A stretch of DNA of 64,000 nucleotides from a virus. The notes beneath the pieces are model-generated. The model did no database searches, had not been told where the DNA came from, and saw only the letters and a program-made list of their open reading frames with translations. Shown here in pieces: positions 31,981 to 55,257 of the stretch. Position numbers and translations under genes: made by a program. The stretch is taken from UHGV virus genome UHGV-0211740; one strand, given 5' to 3'. The stretch's first letter is position 1, and every line of letters begins with the position of its first letter.

Positions 31981-32010
31981 AAAAAGGGGCCGTTTGGCCC
32001 CTTTCTTTTT
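31981..32010. terminator. bidirectional terminator between convergent gene blocks
   Basis: AAAAA-GGGGCC-GTTT-GGCCCC-TTTCTTTTT between + gene ending 31967 and - gene ending 32015. Confidence 0.65.
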
Positions 32011-32014
32011 ATAG

Positions 32015-32215
32015 TTAGTAATACTCCCAACATGCCCCATCTTCAGACGGCTTGACTCGCTTACCCTTGTGGTCCACATAGGTGTAACCGCAACCTTCAC
32101 AAATAACAGGTGCTGCATAACCTTCTTTCCACTGATCCTCAGTGATCAGACCTTCCAAATCTTTGCAGTCAAAGCCAAACAACTCTTCAGAACAATTTTT
32201 GCAAAAATCAGCCAT
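32015..32215 (-). CDS. small zinc-ribbon protein (CxxC...CxxC)
   Basis: ORF track; GAGGA RBS; four-cysteine pattern. Confidence 0.5.
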   Translation of the reverse strand: MADFCKNCSEELFGFDCKDLEGLITEDQWKEGYAAPVICEGCGYTYVDHKGKRVKPSEDGACWEYY

Positions 32216-32218
32216 TTC

Positions 32219-32626
32219 TCAGTCCTCGCATTTAACAAATTTTTCTACAGATCCACCAAGCACAGCTTGTTGTTTGATGGCACTTTCTTCATCATAGTGG
32301 ATAGACTTATGTTCCGTACCTCCGAACTTACCTGTGTGGAAGGTGTGCACCCAAATCTCTTTGGGAAGGGATTTATTCTCTTCTTCCACCAATTCCCACA
32401 TACCCCACAAGTGATCTGTGATATCTTTGATGAAATATCCCTCGCCGAGGTTTGTATTCACACTATAGGCCGATTCGTGATCTCCGTGAATATAACGGAA
32501 GGCAGTATACTCTTTCCCTGGCGTGAAGTGGGTATCCATCAGTATGGCTGTTAAAGAATTAGGGTCTCGAAATCCCAAGAACTTTAGTTTAACAATTTCG
32601 ACGTTTACACTTGCAAGATTCTCCAT
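32219..32626 (-). CDS. hypothetical protein with metallophosphoesterase-like motifs (MDTH, GDHE)
   Basis: ORF track; GAGGAG RBS; motif assignment weak. Confidence 0.4.
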   Translation of the reverse strand: MENLASVNVEIVKLKFLGFRDPNSLTAILMDTHFTPGKEYTAFRYIHGDHESAYSVNTNLGEGYFIKDITDHLWGMWELVEEENKSLPKEIWVHTFHTGKFGGTEHKSIHYDEESAIKQQAVLGGSVEKFVKCED

Positions 32627-32656
32627 GACAGTCTCCTCTGTTTGGTAGGTGAGAGA

Positions 32657-32685
32657 ATCATATACAAACCCGGTGTCGGTGTCAA
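32657..32685 (-). promoter_or_regulatory. sigma70-like promoter on minus strand, TTGACA-17-TATGAT
   Basis: Reverse complement read directly upstream of the 32219..32626 gene. Confidence 0.5.
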
Positions 32686-32762
32686 GCTTAATTTTAAGGG
32701 ATCTGAGAGGGTATTTTATTCAGGAAGGTAATCACACAGGGTGGGGCAATTTATGAAGGCAC

Positions 32763-32780
32763 AGGCCTCGTTTGAGGCCT
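32763..32780. promoter_or_regulatory. intergenic hairpin AGGCCTC-GTTT-GAGGCCT
   Basis: 7-bp stem just downstream of the 32790..33170 stop; T-rich on the plus-strand side only. Confidence 0.3.
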
Positions 32781-32789
32781 TAAATTTTA

Positions 32790-33170
32790 TTATGGCACCT
32801 TGACATAGCGCTCTGACAAAGCTGGGAAGCCAAAAGTGGTGCCTATACTGCCGTACGCTATCCACCATTGAAGTTCATCGTGACACCATTTTCCGATCAG
32901 AAAGGTGCTGGGGTATCGGGTCAGTATTTTGGCATAATCTTTAGGATCTGCACCTTCTGGGATAATGATGCTTGGAACATCTTTGTTATGACCGCAGCAG
33001 CAGTTTAGCGTTTTCAAACCTGCTGCCCACAAGCTCATGATAGGCTTAGCCATACACTTATCAAGGCACACACGTTTTTTGCCGTCACGAAGATTTTTAG
33101 GCACATCAACGATAACATTTGGGCGCTTGGCACCTTTCACTTTCCAATTGTAGGATTTACACTTACACAT
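32790..33170 (-). CDS. cysteine-rich hypothetical protein
   Basis: ORF track; GGAG RBS. Confidence 0.5.
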   Translation of the reverse strand: MCKCKSYNWKVKGAKRPNVIVDVPKNLRDGKKRVCLDKCMAKPIMSLWAAGLKTLNCCCGHNKDVPSIIIPEGADPKDYAKILTRYPSTFLIGKWCHDELQWWIAYGSIGTTFGFPALSERYVKVP

Positions 33171-33220
33171 TTCATTAGTCTCCGTCTAGAAAGCCGCACT
33201 ATATGTTTTTGAGGTATATT

Positions 33221-33391
33221 TTACTTAAAGTCTTTATCACCTGCCACGATTGCATGAATCCACTCGTTGTGATGCTTAATGGCGGTGAGGTGTAGCATAA
33301 TGTAGTGATTGTCATTACCAAGCATGGTGAGATAAGCTTTAGCAGCACCATGATATAACTTCCACATTAAGTAATGATACCTTCGTTTCAT
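33221..33391 (-). CDS. small ORF (56 aa), hypothetical
   Basis: Not in ORF track (below 60 aa); ATG overlaps stop of upstream HAD gene (ATGA); fills an otherwise empty 217-nt gap. Confidence 0.3.
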   Translation of the reverse strand: MKRRYHYLMWKLYHGAAKAYLTMLGNDNHYIMLHLTAIKHHNEWIHAIVAGDKDFK

Positions 33392-33867
33392 GGCTCTTTC
33401 TCCGGTTCAGGATCTGGGTAATCTTCAATAATAAAAGGCCATCCATTACGCTTTGCGTCAGACTTATACTTAATCTCCTTCATTGCGAACTCTAACTGAT
33501 TTTTAGCAGGAATGCAAGCCGGAGAATCATCCACCCAGATGTCAGGGTAGATATCGAACTGTGCCAAGTAGGCTGCCTTTTGTACACCGCCTGTGTAGAA
33601 CACACCTACATCCAACTCCTTGCGCCAATACTCAATGTCCACGTTGTCTTGAGTGATGAACCGAGAAGTCACAAGGTATACTGTCCACCCTTCCTTTTTC
33701 AAGTCCTTAATCAGGCGGGAGAAGATGAAAGGACTCGCATTAAACGTTCCATCAAAGTCAATGGCAATGATGTGTGTGCCGTGGCGAGTCTCATATGGAT
33801 TGCTCGTGGTGAGATTGCTGTAGTTAAAAGGGACCTCTTCCCCGCAGTAGCTGTAGTCCATATTCAC
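33388..33867 (-). CDS. HAD-superfamily phosphatase / nucleotidase-like
   Basis: Motif I IAIDFDGTF and motif IV WVDDSP. Confidence 0.6.
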   Translation of the reverse strand: MNMDYSYCGEEVPFNYSNLTTSNPYETRHGTHIIAIDFDGTFNASPFIFSRLIKDLKKEGWTVYLVTSRFITQDNVDIEYWRKELDVGVFYTGGVQKAAYLAQFDIYPDIWVDDSPACIPAKNQLEFAMKEIKYKSDAKRNGWPFIIEDYPDPEPEKEP

Positions 33868-34193
33868 ACCTTCTCGTTGATAAATTTACGGGCGGTTTGG
33901 TGAGTTGTTTCTGCTGTCTTCAGGATGATATTAATTTTATCGTCAAGATCATTCATCTCAGCAGTTAATTCAGGAATCTCTCCGGCATGCATGGTGAAAT
34001 CATACATAGACATACCCAGGATCTCGTTGATTCGGCGGTTGCATTCTGCAGCACGCTGGTTCATTTTCCAGGCTAACACTAAAGCCTCTTGTGTAGCCTC
34101 CAGTGCAAAGTCTAATACGTCAGCTTCTTCTTTCGTCATCTCAGTCTCTCTTGTTGTATTTGTTGGTAGGTGCATGAACACCTTATATCTCAC
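33864..34193 (-). CDS. hypothetical protein
   Basis: ORF track; true start may be the internal ATG at 34139. Confidence 0.4.
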   Translation of the reverse strand: MRYKVFMHLPTNTTRETEMTKEEADVLDFALEATQEALVLAWKMNQRAAECNRRINEILGMSMYDFTMHAGEIPELTAEMNDLDDKINIILKTAETTHQTARKFINEKV

Positions 34194-34195
34194 TT

Positions 34196-34768
34196 TTATT
34201 CAAACTGCAATAGCAAGTCCACCACCGCACTAGGCCTGTCAACAAATTCCCCAGGTCCACATGCCCATAGAGGGTATCCGTCAACATACCTCCATATCCA
34301 ACCTGCAGTGTGGAGCTCAAGCAGGGCAGTGCCGTCCTTACTGTCAACCACTCTTTCCCACAGTGTTGGGCAGCGAAGCTTGAGAATCGGGTCCCCGCCC
34401 TTATACCCGTCCATGTAGATACCCATTGCAAAGTTCAGCATCATCTTTTTGTGCATAGATCTTTTACTGAGGGTGCTCATCACTTCCTCTTTGTGAATGC
34501 TTGTAAGCTTCTCCTTAGCTATCCGTAGATCGTTGCAACCATTGTTCAGCAGATCTTCCAGGCACTTGATCCGAAGGTCGTGAATGTCTTTGTCGTGTAC
34601 CGTTGGCACAGGGTCGTAGCGATATAGCACTGTTGATACAAGGTTGCTAGGGTGTGGGTCTGATAGCAACCCATACCCCCAGTACTCTTCTGTATCTGAA
34701 AGGACAAGACACCCAATGTCTCTGTCAAGCTTTCCTGTGTTGTAAGCCACATTGACCGCCATGATCAT
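34196..34768 (-). CDS. hypothetical protein
   Basis: ORF track; overlaps neighbours by 4 nt. Confidence 0.5.
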   Translation of the reverse strand: MIMAVNVAYNTGKLDRDIGCLVLSDTEEYWGYGLLSDPHPSNLVSTVLYRYDPVPTVHDKDIHDLRIKCLEDLLNNGCNDLRIAKEKLTSIHKEEVMSTLSKRSMHKKMMLNFAMGIYMDGYKGGDPILKLRCPTLWERVVDSKDGTALLELHTAGWIWRYVDGYPLWACGPGEFVDRPSAVVDLLLQFE

Positions 34769-35010
34769 AACTCCACTAGCAAAGTACTTTCAAAATGCCT
34801 CTCATGTAGACCATTATAAGGAACCACTTCCACAACACCATCACGGATATATGGAGTCATCATAGTGATATAATCCCCGAACGGGTTGGTATTATCACTA
34901 ACCACAACAACATGCTGCCCTTCCTTGGCAGAGTGCCAGATAGATCTGCACTTCATCATGTGCTCTAGGGCACCTGGTAAAATTTTGTTACGTTCTTTAC
35001 GAGTTTTCAT
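34765..35010 (-). CDS. hypothetical protein
   Basis: ORF track; operon context. Confidence 0.45.
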   Translation of the reverse strand: MKTRKERNKILPGALEHMMKCRSIWHSAKEGQHVVVVSDNTNPFGDYITMMTPYIRDGVVEVVPYNGLHERHFESTLLVEL

Positions 35011-35453
35011 AATAGAAATAGCTCCTTATGAAAATGGGCTTTCAATTTCTCACCAAGAAACTTCTTAATGCCTTCTTCAAGGGTGTTCTCGATGTAGTCC
35101 AACTTAACCGCTTCGATGGACATATCATAGATCGCCAGCTCTAAGCTGTCAAGCCCCATCATAGCATGAACCATAAGATTTTCATCTTCAGATACGTTCA
35201 GTGGGCTACCTATAACATCTGTAGGTAGAATAGTCTCCCAGTTATTCTGGGAGGTTCTATCACCATCCACTTTACGGCGGAGCTCGAAGGTATTCTTAGT
35301 GTAAAACACTTCATAAGAAACGATACGGCTGTCGCTCTCGTAATAAACGAAGTTCAGGTAGGAGCCGAGCCGCAGACGGCAAACTTCTACCCCAAACCAT
35401 TGTTTCTTATAGGAATTCAGGCTAATGCTGTCGCATTCACGTTTGCTCAACAC
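35007..35453 (-). CDS. hypothetical protein
   Basis: ORF track; operon context. Confidence 0.5.
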   Translation of the reverse strand: MLSKRECDSISLNSYKKQWFGVEVCRLRLGSYLNFVYYESDSRIVSYEVFYTKNTFELRRKVDGDRTSQNNWETILPTDVIGSPLNVSEDENLMVHAMMGLDSLELAIYDMSIEAVKLDYIENTLEEGIKKFLGEKLKAHFHKELFLL

Positions 35454-35469
35454 GGCTCTCTCCTTTTTG

Positions 35470-35703
35470 TTAATCTTCGTAAATAAGGATTTCTGCTTTA
35501 GGTTTTCGTGCTTTCAGGTCCAGCTCTATCCAGTGTACCATAGCTGTTTCAAGAAAAACAGCCTGGATACATCCGTCCTCAGCGTGACCAACCAGCATAA
35601 CAAGATCTTCAACTTCATCATCTGCATCACGAACATACAGAATCTCTCCAGATTCAAAGTCTTTCACAACCTGATTGTTGGATAATTTACGAATTTTTGC
35701 CAT
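35470..35703 (-). CDS. hypothetical small protein
   Basis: ORF track 35470..35754; internal ATG at 35703 has GGAGGG RBS and avoids overlap with next gene. Confidence 0.45.
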   Translation of the reverse strand: MAKIRKLSNNQVVKDFESGEILYVRDADDEVEDLVMLVGHAEDGCIQAVFLETAMVHWIELDLKARKPKAEILIYED

Positions 35704-35704
35704 A

Positions 35705-35968
35705 TTAGAAGCCCTCCAGGAAGCTTTTATAGAGGATGATTTCAGTGTCAACACCTGTTACAATCTTATCGTTGCGGATCTCGTCGGTAAGATAGGTGTC
35801 GAAACGCAGCACCTGTGTGGTATTGTCACACATCCACTCTGAGGTAACCATAGCGAAGATTTTGGTGTCTTCGTTGTCTGGTGTGAATGTTACAACTTCA
35901 CCACCCTTAAATTTTTCAATAGGTTGTGTGTTGGCTTTCGGTTCTGCTACAGTGATTTTCGTGGTCAT
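35705..35968 (-). CDS. hypothetical small protein
   Basis: ORF track; operon context. Confidence 0.45.
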   Translation of the reverse strand: MTTKITVAEPKANTQPIEKFKGGEVVTFTPDNEDTKIFAMVTSEWMCDNTTQVLRFDTYLTDEIRNDKIVTGVDTEIILYKSFLEGF

Positions 35969-36225
35969 TACTCTTCCTCCGTAGTTTCACCAAATACCTC
36001 GATACGAGCATCAAGCTCAGTTACTTTCAGCTCTCCAACAAAATCTTTCAGTTCTTTCTCGTCCAGATCGTAAGCCCATACACAAGAAGAGCATGCAGAT
36101 TTCACAATCAGTAGAGTAGATACACGGCCTGACTCTGTAATCATGCTCACAATGGTTCCAACAGGGAACGTGTTGATGGCCTTTTTAACTGGACGTTCAG
36201 TTTTAATTACTACCTCTGTTGCCAT
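35968..36225 (-). CDS. hypothetical small protein
   Basis: ORF track; operon context. Confidence 0.45.
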   Translation of the reverse strand: MATEVVIKTERPVKKAINTFPVGTIVSMITESGRVSTLLIVKSACSSCVWAYDLDEKELKDFVGELKVTELDARIEVFGETTEEE

Positions 36226-36236
36226 AAAATCCTCTC

Positions 36237-37697
36237 TTACTTAGCATACTCGATTAACTCTACAGTTTTCCCAAAGCTTGGGATATAATTTTTATTATAC
36301 CCCTCTGTGAGAACCCACAAAGTATCGTACTTTTTCCACTTGTTGTCAACAGCCTTTTGTTCAAAGTTATGCTCAAAGTATAGGTCGGTCAGGACGATGA
36401 CATCTTTTGCATTTGGTATGTTGGCATCCAGATACTCGAACACGCAAGCGGCTGTTGTGCCCCATGTTGAGTGGACCCCATAATTAATCATCTCGTCGAT
36501 GTTGCCACGAGTGTATACTTTGACCTCTCCAACCTCAGTTGACCAACAGAACATCGTAACCTTAAACTCTTTATACAGATTGCACAATCCAGTGATCTCA
36601 TTGAACATTTTCTTTAAAGTTCTTTGAGAGATCGAGCCAGAAACGTCTAAAGCCACCACAATATCTATCGTGTTTTCCGGATTACGCCCAGGAACAATAA
36701 CGTGCTGATTCTTGTTTATAGCTCCAACTTTCCGCATTGTGCTGGTCAAAGATCCGGATCGGCGACCAGGCTTTCTGTAGGTCAGTTCAGCCTTTCGTTT
36801 AGACAACATACGTTGCTTAATGATGTCTATATAGTTGATTACAGGCTTACCTCTATTCTTGACAAACTCTCGCACAGCCTCAGGGCAACGACCTCCGGAA
36901 GCTTGCATTGCTGCCTCCAGCATGTCACCAGAGTCCTGCATGGCCTGATCTTTATCAGATTGGCTAATTACAGGTTGTGGCTGATCATACCCCATAGCCT
37001 TTCCGAGATCATCACTGGCCCCACCGTTTCCACTCATGTGATCATCGGTTTGTCGCTTATCTCCTTGAGGGTTCTCACCTTTGCCATTCTTACTTTTACT
37101 GTTATTCTGGTCTCTTTGCTTGTCAAGAACTGCATAGACGTTCTCAGCAATCCATCCATGAAACCTCATATCACAGTAGCAACTGGCTAAGAAGCCAAAA
37201 GGCTTACCTTTTACGAAGGTAGTGCTTTTCCCCTTCGGGAAGAAAACACAAGGTGGCTTGCTAAAGTCAACCACAAGACCTGTATTGATAACGTGATCAC
37301 AAGCAATATTGAACAGTTCCGGTTCAAAGCTTTTACCACGGACCAGATGATCACAGATAATATGTCCAACCTCATGCGACAGAAGAAAGGCCACCTCTTT
37401 CACAGATTTTGGGGAATAGAAAACCTCAGCCATCTCAAACTGCTCGTCAGTAAGAGAGGCTTTAAGAATAGCCCTGCGCTCATCAGCCAACCCCATAATG
37501 AACTCAGGGCTGTAATAGATGCGTTTATGGTCGGTTGCCATGGTGGAGCACCATGTGTGGTTTTCTACGAACTGCAACCCTGACAACAGTGTGCCATAAA
37601 ACGGCAGCTTTTCAAGGAGATACATACGTGCAGCCTGCAACATTCTCAGGGCATCATCTTTTTGCGAGGCAATGATTTCTGAACTTCTGCTATCCAT
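36237..37697 (-). CDS. putative metallopeptidase (HExxH) fused to von Willebrand factor A domain
   Basis: N-terminal LSHEVGHIICDH; C-terminal DIVVALDVSGSIS (MIDAS DxSxS); GGAG RBS. Confidence 0.6.
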   Translation of the reverse strand: MDSRSSEIIASQKDDALRMLQAARMYLLEKLPFYGTLLSGLQFVENHTWCSTMATDHKRIYYSPEFIMGLADERRAILKASLTDEQFEMAEVFYSPKSVKEVAFLLSHEVGHIICDHLVRGKSFEPELFNIACDHVINTGLVVDFSKPPCVFFPKGKSTTFVKGKPFGFLASCYCDMRFHGWIAENVYAVLDKQRDQNNSKSKNGKGENPQGDKRQTDDHMSGNGGASDDLGKAMGYDQPQPVISQSDKDQAMQDSGDMLEAAMQASGGRCPEAVREFVKNRGKPVINYIDIIKQRMLSKRKAELTYRKPGRRSGSLTSTMRKVGAINKNQHVIVPGRNPENTIDIVVALDVSGSISQRTLKKMFNEITGLCNLYKEFKVTMFCWSTEVGEVKVYTRGNIDEMINYGVHSTWGTTAACVFEYLDANIPNAKDVIVLTDLYFEHNFEQKAVDNKWKKYDTLWVLTEGYNKNYIPSFGKTVELIEYAK

Positions 37698-37710
37698 TAA
37701 AACTCCAGAA

Positions 37711-37725
37711 GGGGCCGTTGGCCCC
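37711..37725 (-). promoter_or_regulatory. intergenic hairpin GGGGCC-GTT-GGCCCC
   Basis: Between the stop of 37731..38717 and the start of 36237..37697; same motif family as the 31986 and 7130 hairpins. Confidence 0.35.
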
Positions 37726-37730
37726 TGTCA

Positions 37731-38717
37731 TTATTTAACGTGTTTGAAAATACTCGCCAACTCGGTCATCGTCATGCGGGTAGTCTTCATAAGGTCTGTC
37801 ATAGCTTTTTCCATAATCGGTGATACTACCATGAAGTTGCCTTTAGCGAAACCTTTGTTCCAGTCGGTCACCAACAGAGGTTTGATCCCAGCCCCAAGAC
37901 GCTCACCAGTTAAAGCACAGTATTTGCGAATATACGAACTCTTGAATTGGCTAAAGGATAGATCAACTTTCATACCTGCATCGTAGAATGTTTGGCAATA
38001 GAAAGTGTAAGCCTTGGCAATCTCAACATCATCAGGCAGTGCAGGAACCTCTTCTGCAACCTCCTCTTCGACCTCCTGAGGCTCTTTTTCCTCTTCAGAG
38101 GTCTGTTGCACCATTTCTTCAATTTCTTCTGCCACAGGCTCGTTTACGATGTCTGAAATGTGTTTGTTGGCTGCACGCTCTGCCATAAAATTCTTAAAGT
38201 CCTGCATTGGTGACATATCTTCCTCCTCTTCGTCAAATAGTGCTAGTTTATCTTCTTCTGTCCCATATTGCAAGATGAAATCTTCAAAAGTATATTCATC
38301 TTTTAATTCCTCCATCCTCTCTTCGCTCAGGTGGAGCATCATTTGTTGGACAATTTTTCGATCAGTTTTGTCCTTAATCAAGATTGCGGTCGTTTTATCT
38401 ACCAGACAATCCTTAAGGGAGTTGCACCGAAGTCCAACCACACAACAGTTATCGATTGCATAAGGACCTTCATCGTTTATCCGCTCCAAAGATGGGTAGA
38501 ACGGATTCCCCAGTCCGTTTTCATCTGTGTGCATGTCAAAAGGAATAAGGGTGTAGTCGCACACCCCCTCTCCTAAAAGTTTTTTACCAAATAGGAGGTA
38601 TTCTTCCCATGACAGGTTGAACTCTATATCTCGTTTCCGTGCATTATTCTGTTTACGTCTATATTTTTTGAGCAGGCGCTCTAACTCTTCTGGTGTATAA
38701 TATTTTTCAAGATTCAT
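37731..38717 (-). CDS. hypothetical protein with acidic glutamate-rich central region
   Basis: ORF track 37731..38912; start placed at ATG 38717 so the gene does not run through the divergent promoters. Confidence 0.45.
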   Translation of the reverse strand: MNLEKYYTPEELERLLKKYRRKQNNARKRDIEFNLSWEEYLLFGKKLLGEGVCDYTLIPFDMHTDENGLGNPFYPSLERINDEGPYAIDNCCVVGLRCNSLKDCLVDKTTAILIKDKTDRKIVQQMMLHLSEERMEELKDEYTFEDFILQYGTEEDKLALFDEEEEDMSPMQDFKNFMAERAANKHISDIVNEPVAEEIEEMVQQTSEEEKEPQEVEEEVAEEVPALPDDVEIAKAYTFYCQTFYDAGMKVDLSFSQFKSSYIRKYCALTGERLGAGIKPLLVTDWNKGFAKGNFMVVSPIMEKAMTDLMKTTRMTMTELASIFKHVK

Positions 38718-38748
38718 GAGTTGTCTCTTGTGCTCTGTAGGTGAAGAA

Positions 38749-38777
38749 ATCTTATCAAGTGCCTCGACAGATGTCAA
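38749..38777 (-). promoter_or_regulatory. sigma70-like promoter on minus strand, TTGACA-17-TAAGAT
   Basis: Reverse complement read directly; drives the leftward block. Confidence 0.5.
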
Positions 38778-38790
38778 CCTCAAAAACGTA

Positions 38791-38819
38791 TTGACTTTAC
38801 TATAAATCCACGATATAGT
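38791..38819 (+). promoter_or_regulatory. sigma70-like promoter TTGACT-17-TATAGT
   Basis: Back-to-back with the minus-strand promoter; drives the rightward block. Confidence 0.5.
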
Positions 38820-38859: not shown

Positions 38860-39759
38860 ATGGCAAATCTTAACAGCTTTAGCACTCGGTGGAAACAAGA
38901 TATCACAACCAATCTCTCAGCAGGTGATATCCTTTCTGCAATTTACGAGGCTTTGGATGATAAAGCTACTTCAAAATCGGTTTGTACCAACCCGCTAATT
39001 CCTATAGTAATGAAGGTTATTGAGCGTAGACTGGTATCCGGATCTGATAAGTGGACATATCTGGATAATGGAGGCCACACTTACTCCAACGGCTATGTCG
39101 ATATAAAAGTAGAATATGCGGTATCATATCGCCGGAGCGGCTCTGTAACTTTCAACTTCTCTGGTGGTTTCCGATCTCTGGCAACTTCACCTTTTGTTTC
39201 CTCAGAGGAGAAGTTTGAACTTCCGTTCCTTTGGATGATGGCTAACGCGACAGGCAAAACCCCCGTAAGCATTCGCGTAAAATACAACTACAACGGATCT
39301 AGTAAGATCTATGCCGAGAGTGTCTCAGCAAGTTTTTATTTTGTGATGGGGGATGGAATCCTCAAACATATAAAGATGTGCGATATGCATGATGTTATAA
39401 ATGAAGTGACTGATAAGAATGTTCTGGTGAAGGATCTCAACAATTTTTATACACCTGGGGACTATTACGTCAACCGTCCACTGTGCATCTTTAATGCCGC
39501 ACACCCTTTAGGTGAGTATTTGATCGCCAATAGCGATATTGCCAATAACCGCTTCGAGGTAGCAAGAGTACAGAATGAGGTGTTGACATCTTGCAAGAGC
39601 GGTGATAAGTTTACCGAAGAGGAGATGGGTGTTTTAGAAATGATGGGATATAAGTGTAGCCTTTGGGTAGATGAGGTGTTTAATGACGGCATCTATGGAC
39701 AGGATATTTACCCGTTAAAGAAGTATACTGATTCCAGTTTAATTTACGCGGAGATTTGA
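38860..39759 (+). CDS. hypothetical protein
   Basis: ORF track 38818..39759; ATG 38860 with AGGAG RBS downstream of promoter. Confidence 0.55.
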   Translation: MANLNSFSTRWKQDITTNLSAGDILSAIYEALDDKATSKSVCTNPLIPIVMKVIERRLVSGSDKWTYLDNGGHTYSNGYVDIKVEYAVSYRRSGSVTFNFSGGFRSLATSPFVSSEEKFELPFLWMMANATGKTPVSIRVKYNYNGSSKIYAESVSASFYFVMGDGILKHIKMCDMHDVINEVTDKNVLVKDLNNFYTPGDYYVNRPLCIFNAAHPLGEYLIANSDIANNRFEVARVQNEVLTSCKSGDKFTEEEMGVLEMMGYKCSLWVDEVFNDGIYGQDIYPLKKYTDSSLIYAEI

Positions 39760-41043: not shown

Positions 41044-41334
41044 ATGCCGCTTAAAAGAGTAATAAATATGTTATATCAGAAACACGTAACGCGTGCAGAA
41101 AAAGAGTTAAATTTTGACAAAGTTATCCACAGATGTTGTTATGGAAAAATCGGAAGACAGTTAAGAGGGTGCCCCACATTCTTTCACTCCAGTAGACGGC
41201 TAAGTCCTGAAGAGGCAACAGCAGAAATGGTTGCATATAACTGGGAAGTTGTGTACGATATTGACAGATCCGATGTGACATCTGTTTTGGAAAACTTTGA
41301 AAACACTTACACACAAGTAGAGGACTTTTACTAA
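41044..41334 (+). CDS. hypothetical small protein
   Basis: ORF track 41029..41334 (GTG); ATG 41044 chosen. Confidence 0.4.
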   Translation: MPLKRVINMLYQKHVTRAEKELNFDKVIHRCCYGKIGRQLRGCPTFFHSSRRLSPEEATAEMVAYNWEVVYDIDRSDVTSVLENFENTYTQVEDFY

Positions 41335-42518
41335 TGTCAAGAAACGTATTTGAAAGTGGTCAAATTACTGTCCGCGAGTTGCCAGCTATTATTAAGTTTG
41401 CCCAACGGCATAATCGATCTGTTCTGATTTTAGGACCGATGGGTGTTGGGAAGAGCCAAGTGATGAAGCAGATCGCTGACAGCATGTTCGGTGAGCGAGA
41501 TGACAACCTGGTTGATGTTCGGCTGTCAGATAAAGACCCTGCTGACTTGTCTGGGTTACCTATCCCTGTAGAGTCGGATGGGACTACACGCACAGTGTTT
41601 GCAATTCCAGAATTTTGGCCTGCAGATCCGGACTGGAGCGGAATTATCTTCCTAGATGAGCTTACTCATGCAGATAACTACCTGCAGAAGGTTGCAATGC
41701 AAATTATGCTCGACCACAAGTGTGGCACCTATGCATTCCCTAAGAGTTCTGTTTTTGTAGCTGCAGGAAACCGTGCTACAGACGGTGCTGTTCTTTCGGC
41801 GCTAGAAGCTCCTCTAGCTAACCGCTTTATCATTGTAGAAGTTACAAGCAATGCAGAGGTGTTTATTGAGGACTATGCATTCCTTAATGGGGTGCACTCC
41901 TCGGTAATTGGATATCTGAAAAGAGTCCCATCAGCCATCGATAATTATGAGGCCATGGCTGAGATTAATTGTCCAGCTTTTGCTACACCGCGATCTTGGG
42001 TTGCTGCATCTGACATCCTGCACGATTTTGACAGCGGTATTATTTCTGACGCTATGGCTCGTGTTCTTCTGCAAGGTGCTATCGGTCACACTGCAGCGGT
42101 AGAAATCTGGACCTACCACACCAAGAAACGAAACTTGCCAGAAATCGGTCGGATTATGGCAGGGGGTTGCAAAGAGTATGTAGGTCCTAAGCAGCCAGAT
42201 ATTTTGTGGATTCTGGGGTCTGAAGGGTGTATCGCTATTCGTAACATGATGGAAAATGCAAGTATCTCCGACGAAGATCTTGTCAGCTGTGTGGCAAACT
42301 TCCTTGATTTCCTTTGGGAAAATTTCAAGGATGAGAACCGAGACTTTGTATTCTCAGTCTTTATGGCGATGATGAAACCCAACGCCCTAGGAAATGCCTT
42401 ACTTATTGGTAAAGGCCGGGACAAGATCGTTGCTCAGCTGATCAAAGCATACCCGAACCTGATGAAGATTGTAAAAGAGTTTGGTGAAGAGTTTAGCGCC
42501 ATTTTAGCTAAAGCTTGA
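41334..42518 (+). CDS. AAA+ ATPase, MoxR/AAA_5-like
   Basis: Walker A GPMGVGKSQ; Walker B IIFLDELTHA. Confidence 0.6.
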   Translation: MSRNVFESGQITVRELPAIIKFAQRHNRSVLILGPMGVGKSQVMKQIADSMFGERDDNLVDVRLSDKDPADLSGLPIPVESDGTTRTVFAIPEFWPADPDWSGIIFLDELTHADNYLQKVAMQIMLDHKCGTYAFPKSSVFVAAGNRATDGAVLSALEAPLANRFIIVEVTSNAEVFIEDYAFLNGVHSSVIGYLKRVPSAIDNYEAMAEINCPAFATPRSWVAASDILHDFDSGIISDAMARVLLQGAIGHTAAVEIWTYHTKKRNLPEIGRIMAGGCKEYVGPKQPDILWILGSEGCIAIRNMMENASISDEDLVSCVANFLDFLWENFKDENRDFVFSVFMAMMKPNALGNALLIGKGRDKIVAQLIKAYPNLMKIVKEFGEEFSAILAKA

Positions 42519-52557: not shown

Positions 52558-54981
52558 ATGAGTATGTGGTCTTTCGACCTGGAGGCCTCTGGTTTACTAG
52601 AAGACCTAGATCTTTATTATCACTGCGGCTTGTTTAAAGAGTTGAATAAGAACCGTTTTATGCTGTTCCTTCCTCTAAATGACCGCACACACTACTCTGA
52701 AGAGGATATAGAGAAGGCTAAGAACTTTATTCTGGCAAAGAAAACTCTTTATAAAGATTTTGAAGTTCGCATAGCAGATTTTTCAGAGTTGGAAGGTTGG
52801 CTTACAGGCAATTCTGACTGGTCACCCACAGCTTTGAACTGCCACAACTGCTACAGCTACGACTTTATGCTGATGGAGAGATTGTCCGGTATTCATTTTG
52901 ATATGTTCCGTGATCCTAAGTGTATGGGAACTATCAACGACCACCAGGTTAATCTGTTTGATACATTGGCTATGAGCCGAATCTTGTGGCCTGACCGACC
53001 TTTGCCAAAAGGTTGTCCAGACTCAGTATTCAACCCAGTTACTAAGAAAATGCAACCTGTTGGACCTCACGGTCTTATGGCATGGGGCTATGCTCTTGGT
53101 AACCAAAAAGTTCAAATTGATGACTGGCGCGAGCTTCCGTTGTGGAAGTATGTGGATCGTGTGTTCGAGGACGTTATCATCCAAGAGCTACTCTGGAAAG
53201 AGTTGGTAGCGGAATCAAAAGGTGTATTCTACGGCAAATCTGACATGCAGAACTTTATGTACGATCCTGCCAAAGAGAAGCCGAAAGGGTTCAAAAAGAT
53301 CACCTGGAAGAATGCATTGCGTCGAGGCATGCTGCAGCACTTCCTGATGGAGCTGCAGGCCCGTCAGGGTGTGTATTTTGACATAGACGGGGCTATTGCT
53401 TTACGTGACCGCTGTGATGCGTGGATGAAGGAGATCGCTGATCGTGTTGAACCTCAACTCCCTTTAAAAGAGTTATCAATATCTCAGCGGCCTAAATTCC
53501 CTGAAAAGCCGTTTAACCAAGATGGGACAATTTCCAATAACGGCTGGAAATGGTTAAAAGATAAACTTGGCTATCCTGTGGACATGAGCGCTTTAGAGTT
53601 CAAAGCCCCGCCTAAGCGAGCATTTACCTCCACAGGAGATGTCAGTAAAATGGGGATAAAATGGTGTGAAGAGATGGGCTGCAAAGACCCAGACAAGATG
53701 GCTGATTTCTTGAGGGGGTATATTAAAGGCACCTCCACACCACACCCTTTACCTAAAGAGCTGATGGATCAGGCAATAAGTGATCTGCAGCAGAAGCGAA
53801 TGCCGGAATGCAAGATACCTATGAAAATCAGCAATCAGGACGATATTAAGCGATACCTGATCAGTGCTGGTTGGCTTCCAACAATGTGGAGAACTAAAGA
53901 TGTAACTAAAGACAGTAAGAAGAAAGCTTTACCTGATGCAGATGTTGATGCACGAGTATATGCATATATGGACGAGCTTTTAGAGTCAGAGTATTGTGAC
54001 CTGATTATCAACTTCTGGAACAAAACTGATGCTAAGTTCCAGACAACTGTGCACAAGTTCCGAAGCTTCCCTAACTCCGAAAGGATTAAAAAAGAAGTAT
54101 TCGGGAAAATACGTAGAAAAGCCAGGGCACTTATCACTTCTCCACAACTGAAAGATACGTTTGGGCACCTGTGCCCGAATCTTGAAAAATTGAACGGAGA
54201 AATGGCTAAGGACATCGTCTTGTGGTTATCCTTGCGAAACCGCAGGTCGGTCCTTGATCCAATCAAGGAGGATAAGGTTGATACTGGTCTTCTTAATCAT
54301 CCACGTTTGAAGATTGACCATAAGCTTCCTGCTAAAAGCTCTGGATTAACAAACACTTCCAGACAGAAACACAGTATTTGTGCAAACATGCCTAAACCAT
54401 CTCCGAAAGTGGTTATGGGTAAAGAGATGCGTAGTCTGTGGGGTGTTCCTCCTGGATACTTTGAGATCGGTATTGACGGGTCCAACTTAGAGCAGCTTAT
54501 CGGGGCTTGGGGTGCCTTTGAGTTCGACAACGGCCTGTATTATGATGTTGTAAGTAACGGGGACGCGCACCAAAACAATGCTGAGGCGTATACAAAAGTA
54601 GCAGGAAGAGAGGTATCTCGTAATGACGGTAAACCTATCACGTATGGGGTTATGTACGGGGCACAAAAAGATAAAGTTGCAGACATGCTGGATATCTCTC
54701 CAGAATTGGGACAAAAGGTAATCGATGCTCTCTGGGATGCTAACCCCGGCCTTAAGGGGCGTAAAGAGGACTTGGAGAAATTCTGGGAAGCAACAGGTAA
54801 GAAATTTATCTACTCTTTTGATGGTCATGCCATCTGGACCCGCTCTAAACACTCTTTGCTTAATGCATACCAACAAAATGGCGGTGCATCGTTGTGTGAC
54901 TTGGTTGGGATACTCATGCACCACCAGATGGTGAAGCGTGGGTGGTATGATGAAGGTGTTCGTCGTATTATTTATTACCAT
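52558..54981 (+). CDS. DNA polymerase, family A, exon 1 (3'-5' exo domain to first half of motif C)
   Basis: Exo I SFDLEASG; motif B RNDGKPITYGVMYGAQ; ends ...RRIIYYH then an in-frame stop. Confidence 0.75.
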
Positions 54982-55257
54982 AAATAACATTGTGGCTTCA
55001 TAGAGCAATCTATGTCGAATAACCTCTTTAACTGCGGGAAGCCTAAACCTTATGGCAAGGTAATCCGCAACGAAGCGCTCAAAAGAGCGAACGCTCAGAG
55101 GCCATTCCGAAAGGAAGTAGACCAGCAAGTGCGGTCGAAATGGGAGGGTTCCTATGGTTGTTTACCCTAGGAATGTGAGATGGTCCGATCCTACGTGAAA
55201 ACGTATGGCTATGCACGTAATGGTGCGGGGTAGCTTAACGACCTACCTGAACTATTG
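54982..55257 (+). other. putative group I self-splicing intron (276 nt, no ORF) in the DNA polymerase gene
   Basis: Exons in the same frame; joining gives RRIIYYH-DEYQLQV (motif C); 5' exon ends in U, intron ends in G; IGS GUGG; P-like ACUGCGGGAA and Q-like AAUCCGCAAC. Confidence 0.6.

What the first reader, a model, noticed from the sequence alone, without database searches (positions are those of the whole stretch)
32015..38717. Leftward block of 14 mostly small genes of unknown function
These genes are transcribed opposite to both flanking blocks from a promoter at ~38750-38777, with an extra internal promoter at ~32657-32685. They include two zinc-ribbon proteins, a HAD phosphatase, a possible metallophosphoesterase fragment and the metallopeptidase-vWA protein. 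This is where early host-takeover or anti-defence genes would be expected.
Basis: inference. Interest (0 to 1): 0.5.

Follow-up and report, generated by a model that had tools for sequence, protein, structure and literature searches.

The report
Dispensable accessory operon of rV5-like phage
This is the already-described "genes 11-26" leftward operon of an rV5-like (Vequintavirus) coliphage: 14 real but dispensable accessory genes, one of which (a metallopeptidase-vWA protein) is the partner of a phage MoxR ATPase recently shown to counter a bacterial defence system.

Summary
The window is a Vequintavirus (92% nt identity to coliphage rV5). The 14 minus-strand ORFs at 32015-38717 are real. All are under purifying selection (pooled dN/dS 0.047). 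They sit between a sigma70-type divergent promoter pair and a strong bidirectional terminator. The 2013 rV5 paper already describes this as transcription unit "genes 11-26".

Domain claims:
- The metallopeptidase-vWA protein is confirmed (Pfam DUF2201_N + DUF2201, HExxH and MIDAS residues invariant).
- One zinc ribbon is confirmed. The second Cys-rich protein belongs to a large uncharacterised family and is not a ribbon.
- The metallophosphoesterase fragment is not supported.

The first gene is a distant Srd-like protein with a duplicated module.

The vWA protein's MoxR ATPase partner lies 3.6 kb away on the other promoter arm. The two genes are adjacent in N4, in an Aeromonas phage and in a bacterium.

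Published transposon sequencing of the relative Bas54 shows every block ortholog is dispensable on E. coli K-12. MoxR is needed against defence system DS-28. Supplementary data show the vWA ortholog is also depleted on the DS-28 host.

"Early" timing remains untested. Verdict: ordinary, already known, interpretation partly supported.

The parts
38749..38777 (-). Sigma70-type promoter of the leftward operon (TTGACA-17-TAAGAT, extended -10 TG); equals rV5 P11
   Evidence: annotated in the rV5 record; conserved in rV5 and navn. Function not tested.
38791..38819 (+). Divergent sigma70-type promoter (TTGACT-17-TATAGT) for the rightward arm that carries the MoxR gene
   Evidence: [quoted passage not shown]
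37731..38717 (-). g14, 328 aa: Srd-like protein (rV5 gp11) with two copies of an Srd-N-terminal-like module joined by a long acidic linker
   Evidence: PHROG 3118 (4.7e-110), 'Srd anti-sigma factor' phrog_1400 (2.7e-10), phrog_4592. BLASTP to T4 Srd: residues 8-102 E 2e-6, residues 252-298 E 0.002, both against the same Srd region. No Pfam or PDB hit. Bas54 ortholog is non-essential with no phenotype on CFE311.
37710..37726 (-). GC hairpin between g14 and g13 (-12.6 kcal/mol) with a poor U tract; possible attenuator or stabiliser
   Evidence: z -1.7, weak.
36237..37697 (-). g13, 486 aa: zincin-like metallopeptidase (HEVGH) fused to a vWA domain with a complete MIDAS; partner of the MoxR ATPase
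   Evidence: Pfam DUF2201_N 1.7e-27 and DUF2201 1.6e-10. H108/E109/H112 and D351/S353/S355/T414/D438 are invariant in N4 gp25, PA5oct and 2L372X homologues. Bas54 ortholog log2FC -2.20, adjusted p 0.009 on CFE311.
35968..36225 (-). g12, 85 aa, unknown (phrog_10698)
   Evidence: dN/dS 0.087.
35705..35968 (-). g11, 87 aa, unknown (phrog_12861)
   Evidence: dN/dS 0.017.
35470..35703 (-). g10, 77 aa (ATG start at 35703), unknown (phrog_12046)
   Evidence: Bas54 ortholog log2FC -1.32 on CFE311, not significant.
35007..35453 (-). g9, 148 aa, unknown, restricted to Vequintavirinae; the database label 'tail protein' is unsupported
   Evidence: phrog_6790; distribution. Ortholog is dispensable; log2FC -2.28 on CFE311, p 0.028, adjusted p 0.195.
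34765..35010 (-). g8, 81 aa, unknown (phrog_4868), found across Vequintavirinae and relatives
34196..34762 (-). g7, 188 aa, unknown, found only in genus Vequintavirus
   Evidence: All 116 tblastn hits are at least 95% identical; phrog_12232.
33864..34139 (-). g6, 91 aa (ATG start at 34139), unknown, probably helical
   Evidence: phrog_12604 aligns from residue 19; only sub-threshold coiled-coil-like Pfam hits.
33388..33861 (-). g5, 157 aa: cap-less HAD-fold phosphatase candidate
33221..33391 (-). g4, 56 aa, unknown (phrog_12006)
   Evidence: dN/dS 0.145.
32790..33170 (-). g3, 126 aa: member of a large uncharacterised Cys/His-rich family (CxCxSYN ... CxDxC ... SCCGH)
32763..32780 (-). Hairpin after g3 (-13.1 kcal/mol, z -3.5) with no U tract on the minus strand
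32657..32685 (-). Internal sigma70-type promoter (TTGACA-17-TATGAT) upstream of g2-g1
   Evidence: The -35 is conserved; the -10 is weaker in rV5 and navn. Not annotated in the rV5 record.
32219..32626 (-). g2, 135 aa: mosaic protein; the C-terminal ~45 aa module is shared with T1-like siphophages; this locus varies among Vequintaviruses
   Evidence: PHROG hits split at residues 12-81 and 91-135; tblastn. Bas54 has two different ORFs at this position.
32015..32215 (-). g1, 66 aa: zinc-ribbon-like protein (CxxC...CxxC) conserved in Felix O1-like and T5-like phages
   Evidence: phrog_2210. 836 phage records match. C5, C8, C39 and C42 are invariant.
31983..32004 (.). Bidirectional intrinsic terminator that closes the operon and the converging tail-fibre gene
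   Evidence: -19.7 kcal/mol, z -5.35. Annotated in rV5 and discussed in the rV5 paper.
41334..42518 (+). MoxR-type AAA+ ATPase (outside the finding): functional partner of g13, on the other arm of the divergent promoter
   Evidence: Weak AAA_5 and bpMoxR Pfam hits. Homologous to N4 gp24 (2e-28), the 2L372X ATPase (3e-58) and KB57_228 (9e-156). The Bas54 ortholog bas54_0063 is required against DS-28.

Best explanation
The block is the 'genes 11-26' transcription unit of an rV5-like Vequintavirus. It is one arm of a divergent, host-RNA-polymerase (sigma70) driven region that carries dispensable accessory genes for dealing with the host.

Transcription is inferred to start near 38742 and to run leftward through all 14 genes to the bidirectional terminator at about 32000. 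A second start near 32650 probably boosts the last two genes.

The products have no single joint function:
1. g14 is a distant relative of T4 Srd with a duplicated Srd-N-like module and an acidic linker. By inference it binds a host RNA-metabolism or transcription protein such as RNase E.
2. g13 is a zinc metallopeptidase-vWA protein. It is inferred to work with the MoxR AAA+ ATPase encoded 3.6 kb away on the other arm. In this model the vWA MIDAS site holds a target protein, MoxR remodels it using ATP, and the HExxH domain cleaves it. The likeliest target is a component of a host defence system such as DS-28.
3. g5 is a cap-less HAD-fold phosphatase with an unknown substrate.
4. g1 and g3 are small metal-binding proteins from families spread widely among phages.
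5. The other nine genes are lineage-restricted proteins of unknown function.

Shown here: gene reality, operon signals, domain content, and conservation of the MoxR/vWA pairing. Taken from the literature on a close relative: dispensability and the defence-linked phenotype. Inferred: timing, targets and mechanism.
For: Identity and prior description:
- The window is 92% identical to rV5 and the block equals ORF11-26.
- The rV5 paper defines unit 11-26, its bidirectional promoters and terminator, and gp11 as Srd-like.

g13 and MoxR:
- Catalytic and MIDAS residues are invariant across distant phages.
- The ATPase and DUF2201 genes are adjacent in N4 (gp24-gp25), in Aeromonas phage 2L372X and in a 1.25 Mb bacterial contig. 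ATPase homology is confirmed.
- The split arrangement is conserved in a second genus, Klebsiella phage KB57.

Published transposon sequencing of Bas54:
- All orthologs are dispensable on K-12.
- On strain CFE311, MoxR has log2FC -7.23 and the metallopeptidase-vWA has -2.20 (adjusted p 0.009). The genes between g13 and g9 show no effect, which argues against simple polarity.
- A MoxR knockout is sensitive to cloned DS-28.

Other genes:
- g14. T4 Srd binds RNase E.
- g5.
- g1.
- g3.
Against: - No transcript data exist for this phage group, so 'early' is only inferred. The N4 homologues gp24/gp25 are reported as middle genes.
- The g13 ortholog's depletion is much weaker than MoxR's. It was measured in a wild strain that differs from K-12 in many ways, and it was not followed up with the cloned defence system. 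g13 may be only an auxiliary, or its phenotype may be unrelated to DS-28.
- MoxR's own Pfam matches here are below the gathering thresholds.
- Similarity of g14 to T4 Srd is weak and limited to about 90 residues.
- The HAD assignment rests on motifs and a medium-confidence model.
- Twelve of the 14 genes have no phenotype at all.
Confidence: 0.7

Rival explanations
1. The MoxR/metallopeptidase-vWA pair is a virion-assembly chaperone-protease that folds or processes structural proteins, and the block is therefore partly morphogenetic. Iyer et al. 2021 proposed this for jumbo phages by analogy with the MoxR-vWA tail-assembly system of the Acidianus two-tailed virus.
For: - The proposal appears in PMC7824862.
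- The pair belongs to the conserved core of N4-like phages.
- In a 578 kb phage-like contig, the homologue lies among proteostasis genes HSP20, ClpS and ClpP.
- The block abuts the tail-fibre module.
Against: - Both bas54_0063 (MoxR) and bas54_0055 (vWA) tolerate transposon insertions at 94% of sites on K-12, so neither is needed to make infective virions there.
- The MoxR knockout is specifically sensitive to one cloned defence system.
- In the text I read, the rV5 paper names only products of genes 27-66 as structural proteins. I did not open its MS table.
Confidence: 0.12
2. The block has no host-takeover or anti-defence role as a unit. It is a hypervariable 'moron' dump in which most genes are near-neutral passengers, and the weak CFE311 phenotype of the g13 ortholog is a strain-background or measurement artefact.
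For: - Twelve of 14 orthologs show log2FC near 0 on CFE311.
- The g2 locus is mosaic and differs between close relatives.
- g7 and several small genes are genus-restricted.
- 27 genes, many of them tail fibres, change between K-12 and CFE311, so host differences go well beyond defence.
Against: - Every gene is under strong purifying selection, pooled dN/dS 0.047.
- g14, g13, g9, g8 and g5 are kept in the same order across Vequintavirinae genera.
- g1 is 55-70% identical across three unrelated phage lineages.
- The MoxR/vWA pairing is ancient.
Confidence: 0.15
3. The block is a middle, not early, transcription class. Its sigma70-like promoters would be used only after early functions from the rightward arm have acted.
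For: - The N4 homologues gp24/gp25 are middle transcripts.
- Sigma70-like promoters occur all over the rV5 genome, so they do not by themselves define an early class.
Against: - The promoter is a near-consensus extended -10 site placed back to back with the rightward promoter, so naked host RNA polymerase should use it at once.
- An Srd-like gene sits first in the operon. As far as I know, T4 srd is an early gene; I did not check this here.
Confidence: 0.2

Closest known systems
Escherichia phage rV5 transcription unit 'genes 11-26' (Kropinski et al. 2013, PMC3606486), with orthologs bas54_0042-0056 of BASEL phage Bas54
   Same: Orthologous gene by gene at 92% nucleotide identity. It has the same divergent promoter (P11), the same bidirectional terminator and the same Srd-like first gene.
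   Different: The window has an intact 486-aa g13 and an intact g5, where the 2006 rV5 record shows a frameshift (ORF12/13) and a stop. The g2 locus differs from Bas54. The rV5 'P20' promoter is weaker here.
Phage MoxR AAA+ ATPase / metallopeptidase-vWA (DUF2201_N + DUF2201) pair, e.g. N4 gp24-gp25 and the jumbo-phage pair of Iyer et al. 2021
   Same: Same two-domain architecture with invariant HExxH and MIDAS residues, and a homologous ATPase partner.
   Different: In Vequintavirinae the two genes are not adjacent. They lie on opposite arms of a divergent promoter 3.6 kb apart. g13 carries extra inserts, including an acidic low-complexity stretch.
T4 Srd (binds the N-terminal half of RNase E and stimulates host mRNA decay; originally postulated as a sigma-factor decoy)
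   Same: The N-terminal ~90 residues align (E 2e-6). Both are the kind of gene expected in a host-takeover cluster.
   Different: g14 is 328 aa against 248 aa for Srd. It contains a second copy of the module and a roughly 100-residue acidic linker. The rest of Srd does not align, and there is no functional test.
Cap-less (C0) HAD phosphatases such as KdsC, MDP-1 and the T4 Pnkp phosphatase domain
   Same: Four HAD motifs, a Rossmann-like beta-alpha core and small size.
   Different: No HMM-level membership in any HAD subfamily. The substrate is unknown. There is a ~30-residue disordered N-terminus.

Membership tests
DUF2201 metallopeptidase-vWA proteins (Pfam PF13203 + PF09967) | Both Pfam domains score above their gathering thresholds, in N-to-C order | tested here: met
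   97.2 bits (cutoff 23.2) and 41.6 bits (cutoff 26.4).
DUF2201 metallopeptidase-vWA proteins (Pfam PF13203 + PF09967) | Zincin HExxH motif and a complete vWA MIDAS (DxSxS...T...D) | tested here: met
   H108, E109, H112 and D351, S353, S355, T414, D438 are invariant in four distant phage homologues.
DUF2201 metallopeptidase-vWA proteins (Pfam PF13203 + PF09967) | Encoded together with a MoxR-type AAA+ ATPase | tested here: met
   The ATPase lies at 41334-42518, 3.6 kb away and not adjacent. Homologous pairs are adjacent in N4, phage 2L372X and a bacterium.
DUF2201 metallopeptidase-vWA proteins (Pfam PF13203 + PF09967) | Peptidase activity and physical interaction with MoxR | not testable with these tools
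   Needs biochemistry or co-purification.
T4 Srd family | Significant sequence similarity to T4 Srd | tested here: met
   BLASTP E 2e-6 over residues 8-102. phrog_1400 'Srd anti-sigma factor' E 2.7e-10. Weak and partial.
T4 Srd family | Same full-length architecture as Srd | tested here: not met
   Only the N-terminal module aligns. g14 has a second copy of it (E 0.002) and an acidic linker.
T4 Srd family | Binds RNase E or accelerates host mRNA decay | not testable with these tools
   Function is known only for T4 Srd.
HAD superfamily phosphatases | Motifs I (DxDxT), II (S/T), III (K) and IV (DD) conserved | tested here: met
   D37, D39, T41, T67, K97, D113 and D114 are invariant in alignment A1.
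HAD superfamily phosphatases | Rossmannoid HAD core fold | tested here: met
HAD superfamily phosphatases | Match to a curated HAD HMM above its cutoff | tested here: not met
   Best is TIGR01484, E 0.024, 14.7 bits against a cutoff of 41.8. Pfam gives none.
Zinc-ribbon proteins (g1) | Two CxxC knuckles conserved across homologues | tested here: met
   C5, C8, C39 and C42 are invariant in Vequintavirus, Felixounavirus and Tequintavirus copies. Structure not modelled.
   The conserved pattern is CxCxSYN / CxDxC / SCCGH. The AF2 model is an alpha/beta sandwich. There is no ribbon-like match.
Calcineurin-like metallophosphoesterases | Match to Metallophos-type HMMs or the ordered DxH/GDxxDR/GNHE motifs | tested here: not met
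   No such Pfam or NCBIfam hit at E <= 0.1 for any of the 14 products.
Phage early genes | Host sigma70-type promoter upstream | tested here: met
   10/12 match plus extended -10 at 38777-38749. Consensus match only.
Phage early genes | Transcripts appear in the first minutes and are independent of phage protein synthesis | not testable with these tools
   No transcriptome of any Vequintavirinae phage was found.
Phage anti-defence genes | Dispensable on a defence-poor host but required when a given defence system is present | tested here: inconclusive
   Literature data for orthologs. All are dispensable on K-12. Only the g13 ortholog is significantly depleted on CFE311 (log2FC -2.20, adjusted p 0.009), and it was not tested on cloned DS-28.

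The most novel reading that the evidence does not exclude
The metallopeptidase-vWA protein g13 and the unlinked MoxR ATPase form one ATP-driven capture, remodel and cleave machine. It destroys or dismantles a protein of the host DS-28 defence system. This would be an enzymatic chaperone-protease class of anti-defence that is conserved from N4-like podophages to jumbo phages. The published screen reported only the MoxR half.
Probability: 0.35. Interest if true: 0.6.

Novelty: already known. Interest (0 to 1): 0.25.

Why it matters
The block itself adds nothing new. It is the published rV5 gene 11-26 unit in another Vequintavirus isolate.

Its practical value is as a pointer. The MoxR/vWA-metallopeptidase pair is one of the most widespread unexplained two-gene modules in virulent phages. 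It is a core module in N4-like phages and is present in jumbo phages and Vequintavirinae. A 2025 screen tied only the MoxR half to defeating a bacterial defence system. Supplementary numbers in that same screen suggest the vWA-peptidase half matters too. That makes a concrete mechanism directly testable with existing mutants.

The g3 family (hundreds of clusters, no Pfam family, no structural relative) and the g1 zinc ribbon shared by rV5-, Felix O1- and T5-like phages are small, well-defined targets for functional work.

Tried and rejected
- **Sequence-to-PDB searches.** g5, g14, and profiles of the g5 and g3 families gave nothing significant.
- **NCBIfam and PADLOC scans.** The block proteins gave no usable hits. 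The idea that the block encodes a phage-borne defence system has no support.
- **Word-indexed protein search for g5.** It returned only five close relatives. I built the alignment from phage tblastn hits instead. That alignment could not be used for structure prediction, so the g5 model comes from a shallow alignment and is only medium confidence.
- **Direct BLASTP of the two halves of g14 against each other.** It found nothing. The duplication shows only through their common match to T4 Srd.
- **Literature search for Vequintavirinae transcriptomics.** Nothing was found. The daunorubicin paper is irrelevant to the block.
- **rV5 promoter 'P20'.** It is degraded in the window: the -10 is TGCTAT.
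- **Database labels.** I reject 'HNH endonuclease' for g13 and g14, and 'tail protein' for g9, as propagated errors. g13 has clear peptidase/vWA domains. g14 has no Pfam HNH hit, and from reading its sequence the catalytic residues look absent, though I ran no test of that. g9's ortholog is dispensable and lies outside the structural module.
- **Polarity as the cause of the g13 phenotype.** I judged it unlikely because insertions in the two genes immediately downstream have no effect.

Full report
**What the window is.** The 6.8 kb region is 92-97% identical at the nucleotide level to more than 110 Vequintavirus genomes, including coliphage rV5. Gene for gene it corresponds to rV5 ORF11 to ORF26 and to navn_201 to navn_214. 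The gene to its left is the 1877-aa tail-fibre gene. The genes to its right are rV5 ORF10 to ORF1, which include a MoxR ATPase, rIIA and rIIB.

**Checking the observation.** The mechanical ORF list gives 14 abutting minus-strand ORFs between 32015 and 38717, flanked by plus-strand genes. GC skew reverses sign exactly across 32-38 kb. I computed Nei-Gojobori dN/dS for each ORF against rV5 and navn. Against navn the values are 0.015-0.145, pooled 0.047, so all 14 encode proteins. The old rV5 record has a frameshift in the g13 ortholog and a stop in the g5 ortholog. This explains its extra 'ORF13' and its shorter ORF21.

It is the same site annotated as P11 in rV5. It sits back to back with a plus-strand TTGACT-17-TATAGT promoter at 38791-38819. 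The internal site at 32685-32657 is an 11/12 match in the only large intergenic gap and is followed by a GAGGAG ribosome-binding site. Its -35 is conserved, but its -10 is weaker in rV5 and navn.

The operon ends at a strong bidirectional terminator at 31983-32004 (-19.7 kcal/mol, z -5.35). Two smaller hairpins, one after g14 and one after g3, lack U tracts on the transcribed strand.

The 2013 rV5 paper states all of this. [quoted passage not shown] It also calls gp11 a probable Srd homologue.

**The metallopeptidase-vWA gene and its partner.** g13 (36237-37697) matches Pfam DUF2201_N (1.7e-27) and DUF2201 (1.6e-10). I aligned it with its homologues from N4 (gp25), PA5oct and Aeromonas phage 2L372X. 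The zincin residues H108, E109 and H112 and the full MIDAS set D351, S353, S355, T414 and D438 are invariant.

tblastn finds the protein in 643 phage records, including N4-like, jumbo and Vequintavirinae phages. In N4 and in 2L372X the gene directly follows an AAA+ ATPase gene. Those ATPases are homologous to the window's MoxR gene at 41334-42518, with E 2e-28 and 3e-58. In a 1.25 Mb bacterial contig a DUF2201 gene directly follows an AAA_3/AAA_5 MoxR gene.

In this window the two genes sit on opposite arms of the divergent promoter. The same split is present in Klebsiella phage KB57 of another genus, whose KB57_228 is 53% identical to the window's MoxR. gp24 and gp25 are core genes of N4-like phages and are middle transcripts in N4. 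Iyer et al. 2021 described the MoxR/vWA-with-metallopeptidase pair in jumbo phages and proposed a virion-assembly role.

**Experimental data from a close relative.** A 2025 preprint (HIDEN-SEQ, 10.1101/2025.11.20.689424) made a saturated transposon library of the Vequintavirinae phage Bas54. Its genes bas54_0042 to 0056 are the block. All are classed non-essential on E. coli K-12 except bas54_0043, which is classed 'reduced fitness'. Most have insertions at over 80% of TA sites.

The paper reports that the MoxR gene bas54_0063 is specifically required to overcome DS-28. DS-28 is a DefenseFinder-predicted system of uropathogenic strain CFE311. In the supplementary K-12 versus CFE311 table:
- MoxR has log2FC -7.23.
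- The metallopeptidase-vWA gene bas54_0055 has log2FC -2.20 (p 0.0009, adjusted p 0.009).
- The g9 ortholog has log2FC -2.28 (adjusted p 0.195).
- The Srd-like gene has log2FC -0.08.
- All other block genes are near zero.

The two genes just downstream of bas54_0055 show no depletion, so polarity is an unlikely cause. The main text does not discuss bas54_0055. Sheets S6 and S7 of that table hold identical numbers, both computed from the CFE311 file, so the CFE303 comparison is not actually available.

**The other genes.**
- **g14 (Srd-like).** g14 hits the PHROG families labelled Srd anti-sigma factor and sigma70 decoy. Its residues 8-102 align with T4 Srd residues 4-88 (E 2e-6). Its residues 252-298 align with the same Srd segment (E 0.002). 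It therefore carries two copies of that module separated by a long acidic linker. T4 Srd binds the N-terminal half of RNase E and stimulates host mRNA decay. g14 has no Pfam or PDB match.
- **g1 (zinc ribbon).** This 66-aa protein has two invariant CxxC pairs. It is 55-70% identical to proteins of Felix O1-like and T5-like phages. In a T5-like phage it sits inside the tRNA gene cluster.
- **g3 (Cys/His-rich).** g3 belongs to a family of 689 representative clusters with the invariant pattern CxCxSYN, CxDxC, SCCGH. It has no Pfam or PDB sequence match. A confident model (pLDDT 85.9) has no close structural relative. One relative lies in the early operon of a P2-like prophage.
- **g2 (mosaic).** Its last 45 residues recur in T1-like siphophages, and the locus differs between close relatives.
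- **g7.** It occurs only in the genus Vequintavirus.
- **g8 and g9.** They extend across the subfamily.
- **Metallophosphoesterase.** Nothing resembling one was found.
- **PADLOC.** There are no matches.

**Interpretation.** The best reading is a heterogeneous, dispensable accessory operon driven by host-type promoters. It contains one gene with a plausible and partly evidenced anti-defence role together with MoxR, and one distant relative of a known host-takeover protein. It also holds a small phosphatase, two metal-binding proteins and nine unknowns. 'Early' timing is an inference from promoter consensus only. The assembly-chaperone idea for MoxR/vWA is weakened by the dispensability of both genes on K-12. 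That criterion is not met, so the interpretation survives in weakened form.

**Verdict.** The feature is already known and of low interest in itself. The one lead worth following is to test whether the vWA-metallopeptidase is the working partner of MoxR against DS-28.

Noticed in passing
window 54972-55207 (+): A group I intron (Rfam RF00028, 60.8 bits, E 5.8e-13) begins at the 3' end of the 809-aa ORF 52558-54987. That ORF is probably the DNA polymerase gene, which would then be split.
   Followed up: no
window 32015-32215 (-); L012 3001-3195; L013 3001-3201: The 66-aa zinc-ribbon protein g1 is 55-70% identical in three unrelated virulent phage lineages: rV5-like, Felix O1-like and T5-like. 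In T5-like phage oldekolle it lies inside the tRNA gene cluster between tRNA-His and tRNA-Gln. This hints at horizontal spread and a conserved host or tRNA-related target.
   Followed up: partly
window 32790-33170 (-); L015 6001-6813: g3 defines a large family (689 clusters) with invariant CxCxSYN / CxDxC / SCCGH. It has no Pfam model and no structural relative. A 270-aa member sits directly upstream of the gpA replication gene in a P2-like prophage.
   Followed up: partly
window 38860-39759 (+): The gene labelled 'putative alpha 1-3 fucosyltransferase' in rV5-like genomes (ORF10) has no Pfam hit at E <= 0.1, so the label looks unfounded.
   Followed up: no
HIDEN-SEQ preprint, Extended Data Table 8, sheets Data S6 and S7: The sheet titled 'K-12_vs_CFE303' holds the same numbers and the same command line (files '311') as the CFE311 sheet. 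The CFE303 data for Bas54 appear to be missing from the supplement.
   Followed up: yes
L001 (rV5 DQ832317) orthologs of window 36237-37697 and 33388-33861: The rV5 reference record has a frameshift that splits the metallopeptidase-vWA gene into ORF12 and ORF13, and an in-frame stop near the start of the HAD gene. Both genes are intact in the window and in navn, so these are probably sequencing errors in the 2006 record.
   Followed up: partly
window 36237-37697, 37731-38717, 35007-35453 (-): RefSeq and PHROG names for these genes ('HNH endonuclease' for g13 and g14, 'tail protein' for g9) conflict with the domain content and with dispensability. They look like propagated mis-annotations.
   Followed up: partly
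L020 1-9434 (578 kb JGI contig): A DUF2201 homologue in a very large phage-like contig is surrounded by HSP20, ClpS, ClpP and T4-type RNA ligase genes. This is a proteostasis neighbourhood that may bear on how the vWA-peptidase works.
   Followed up: no
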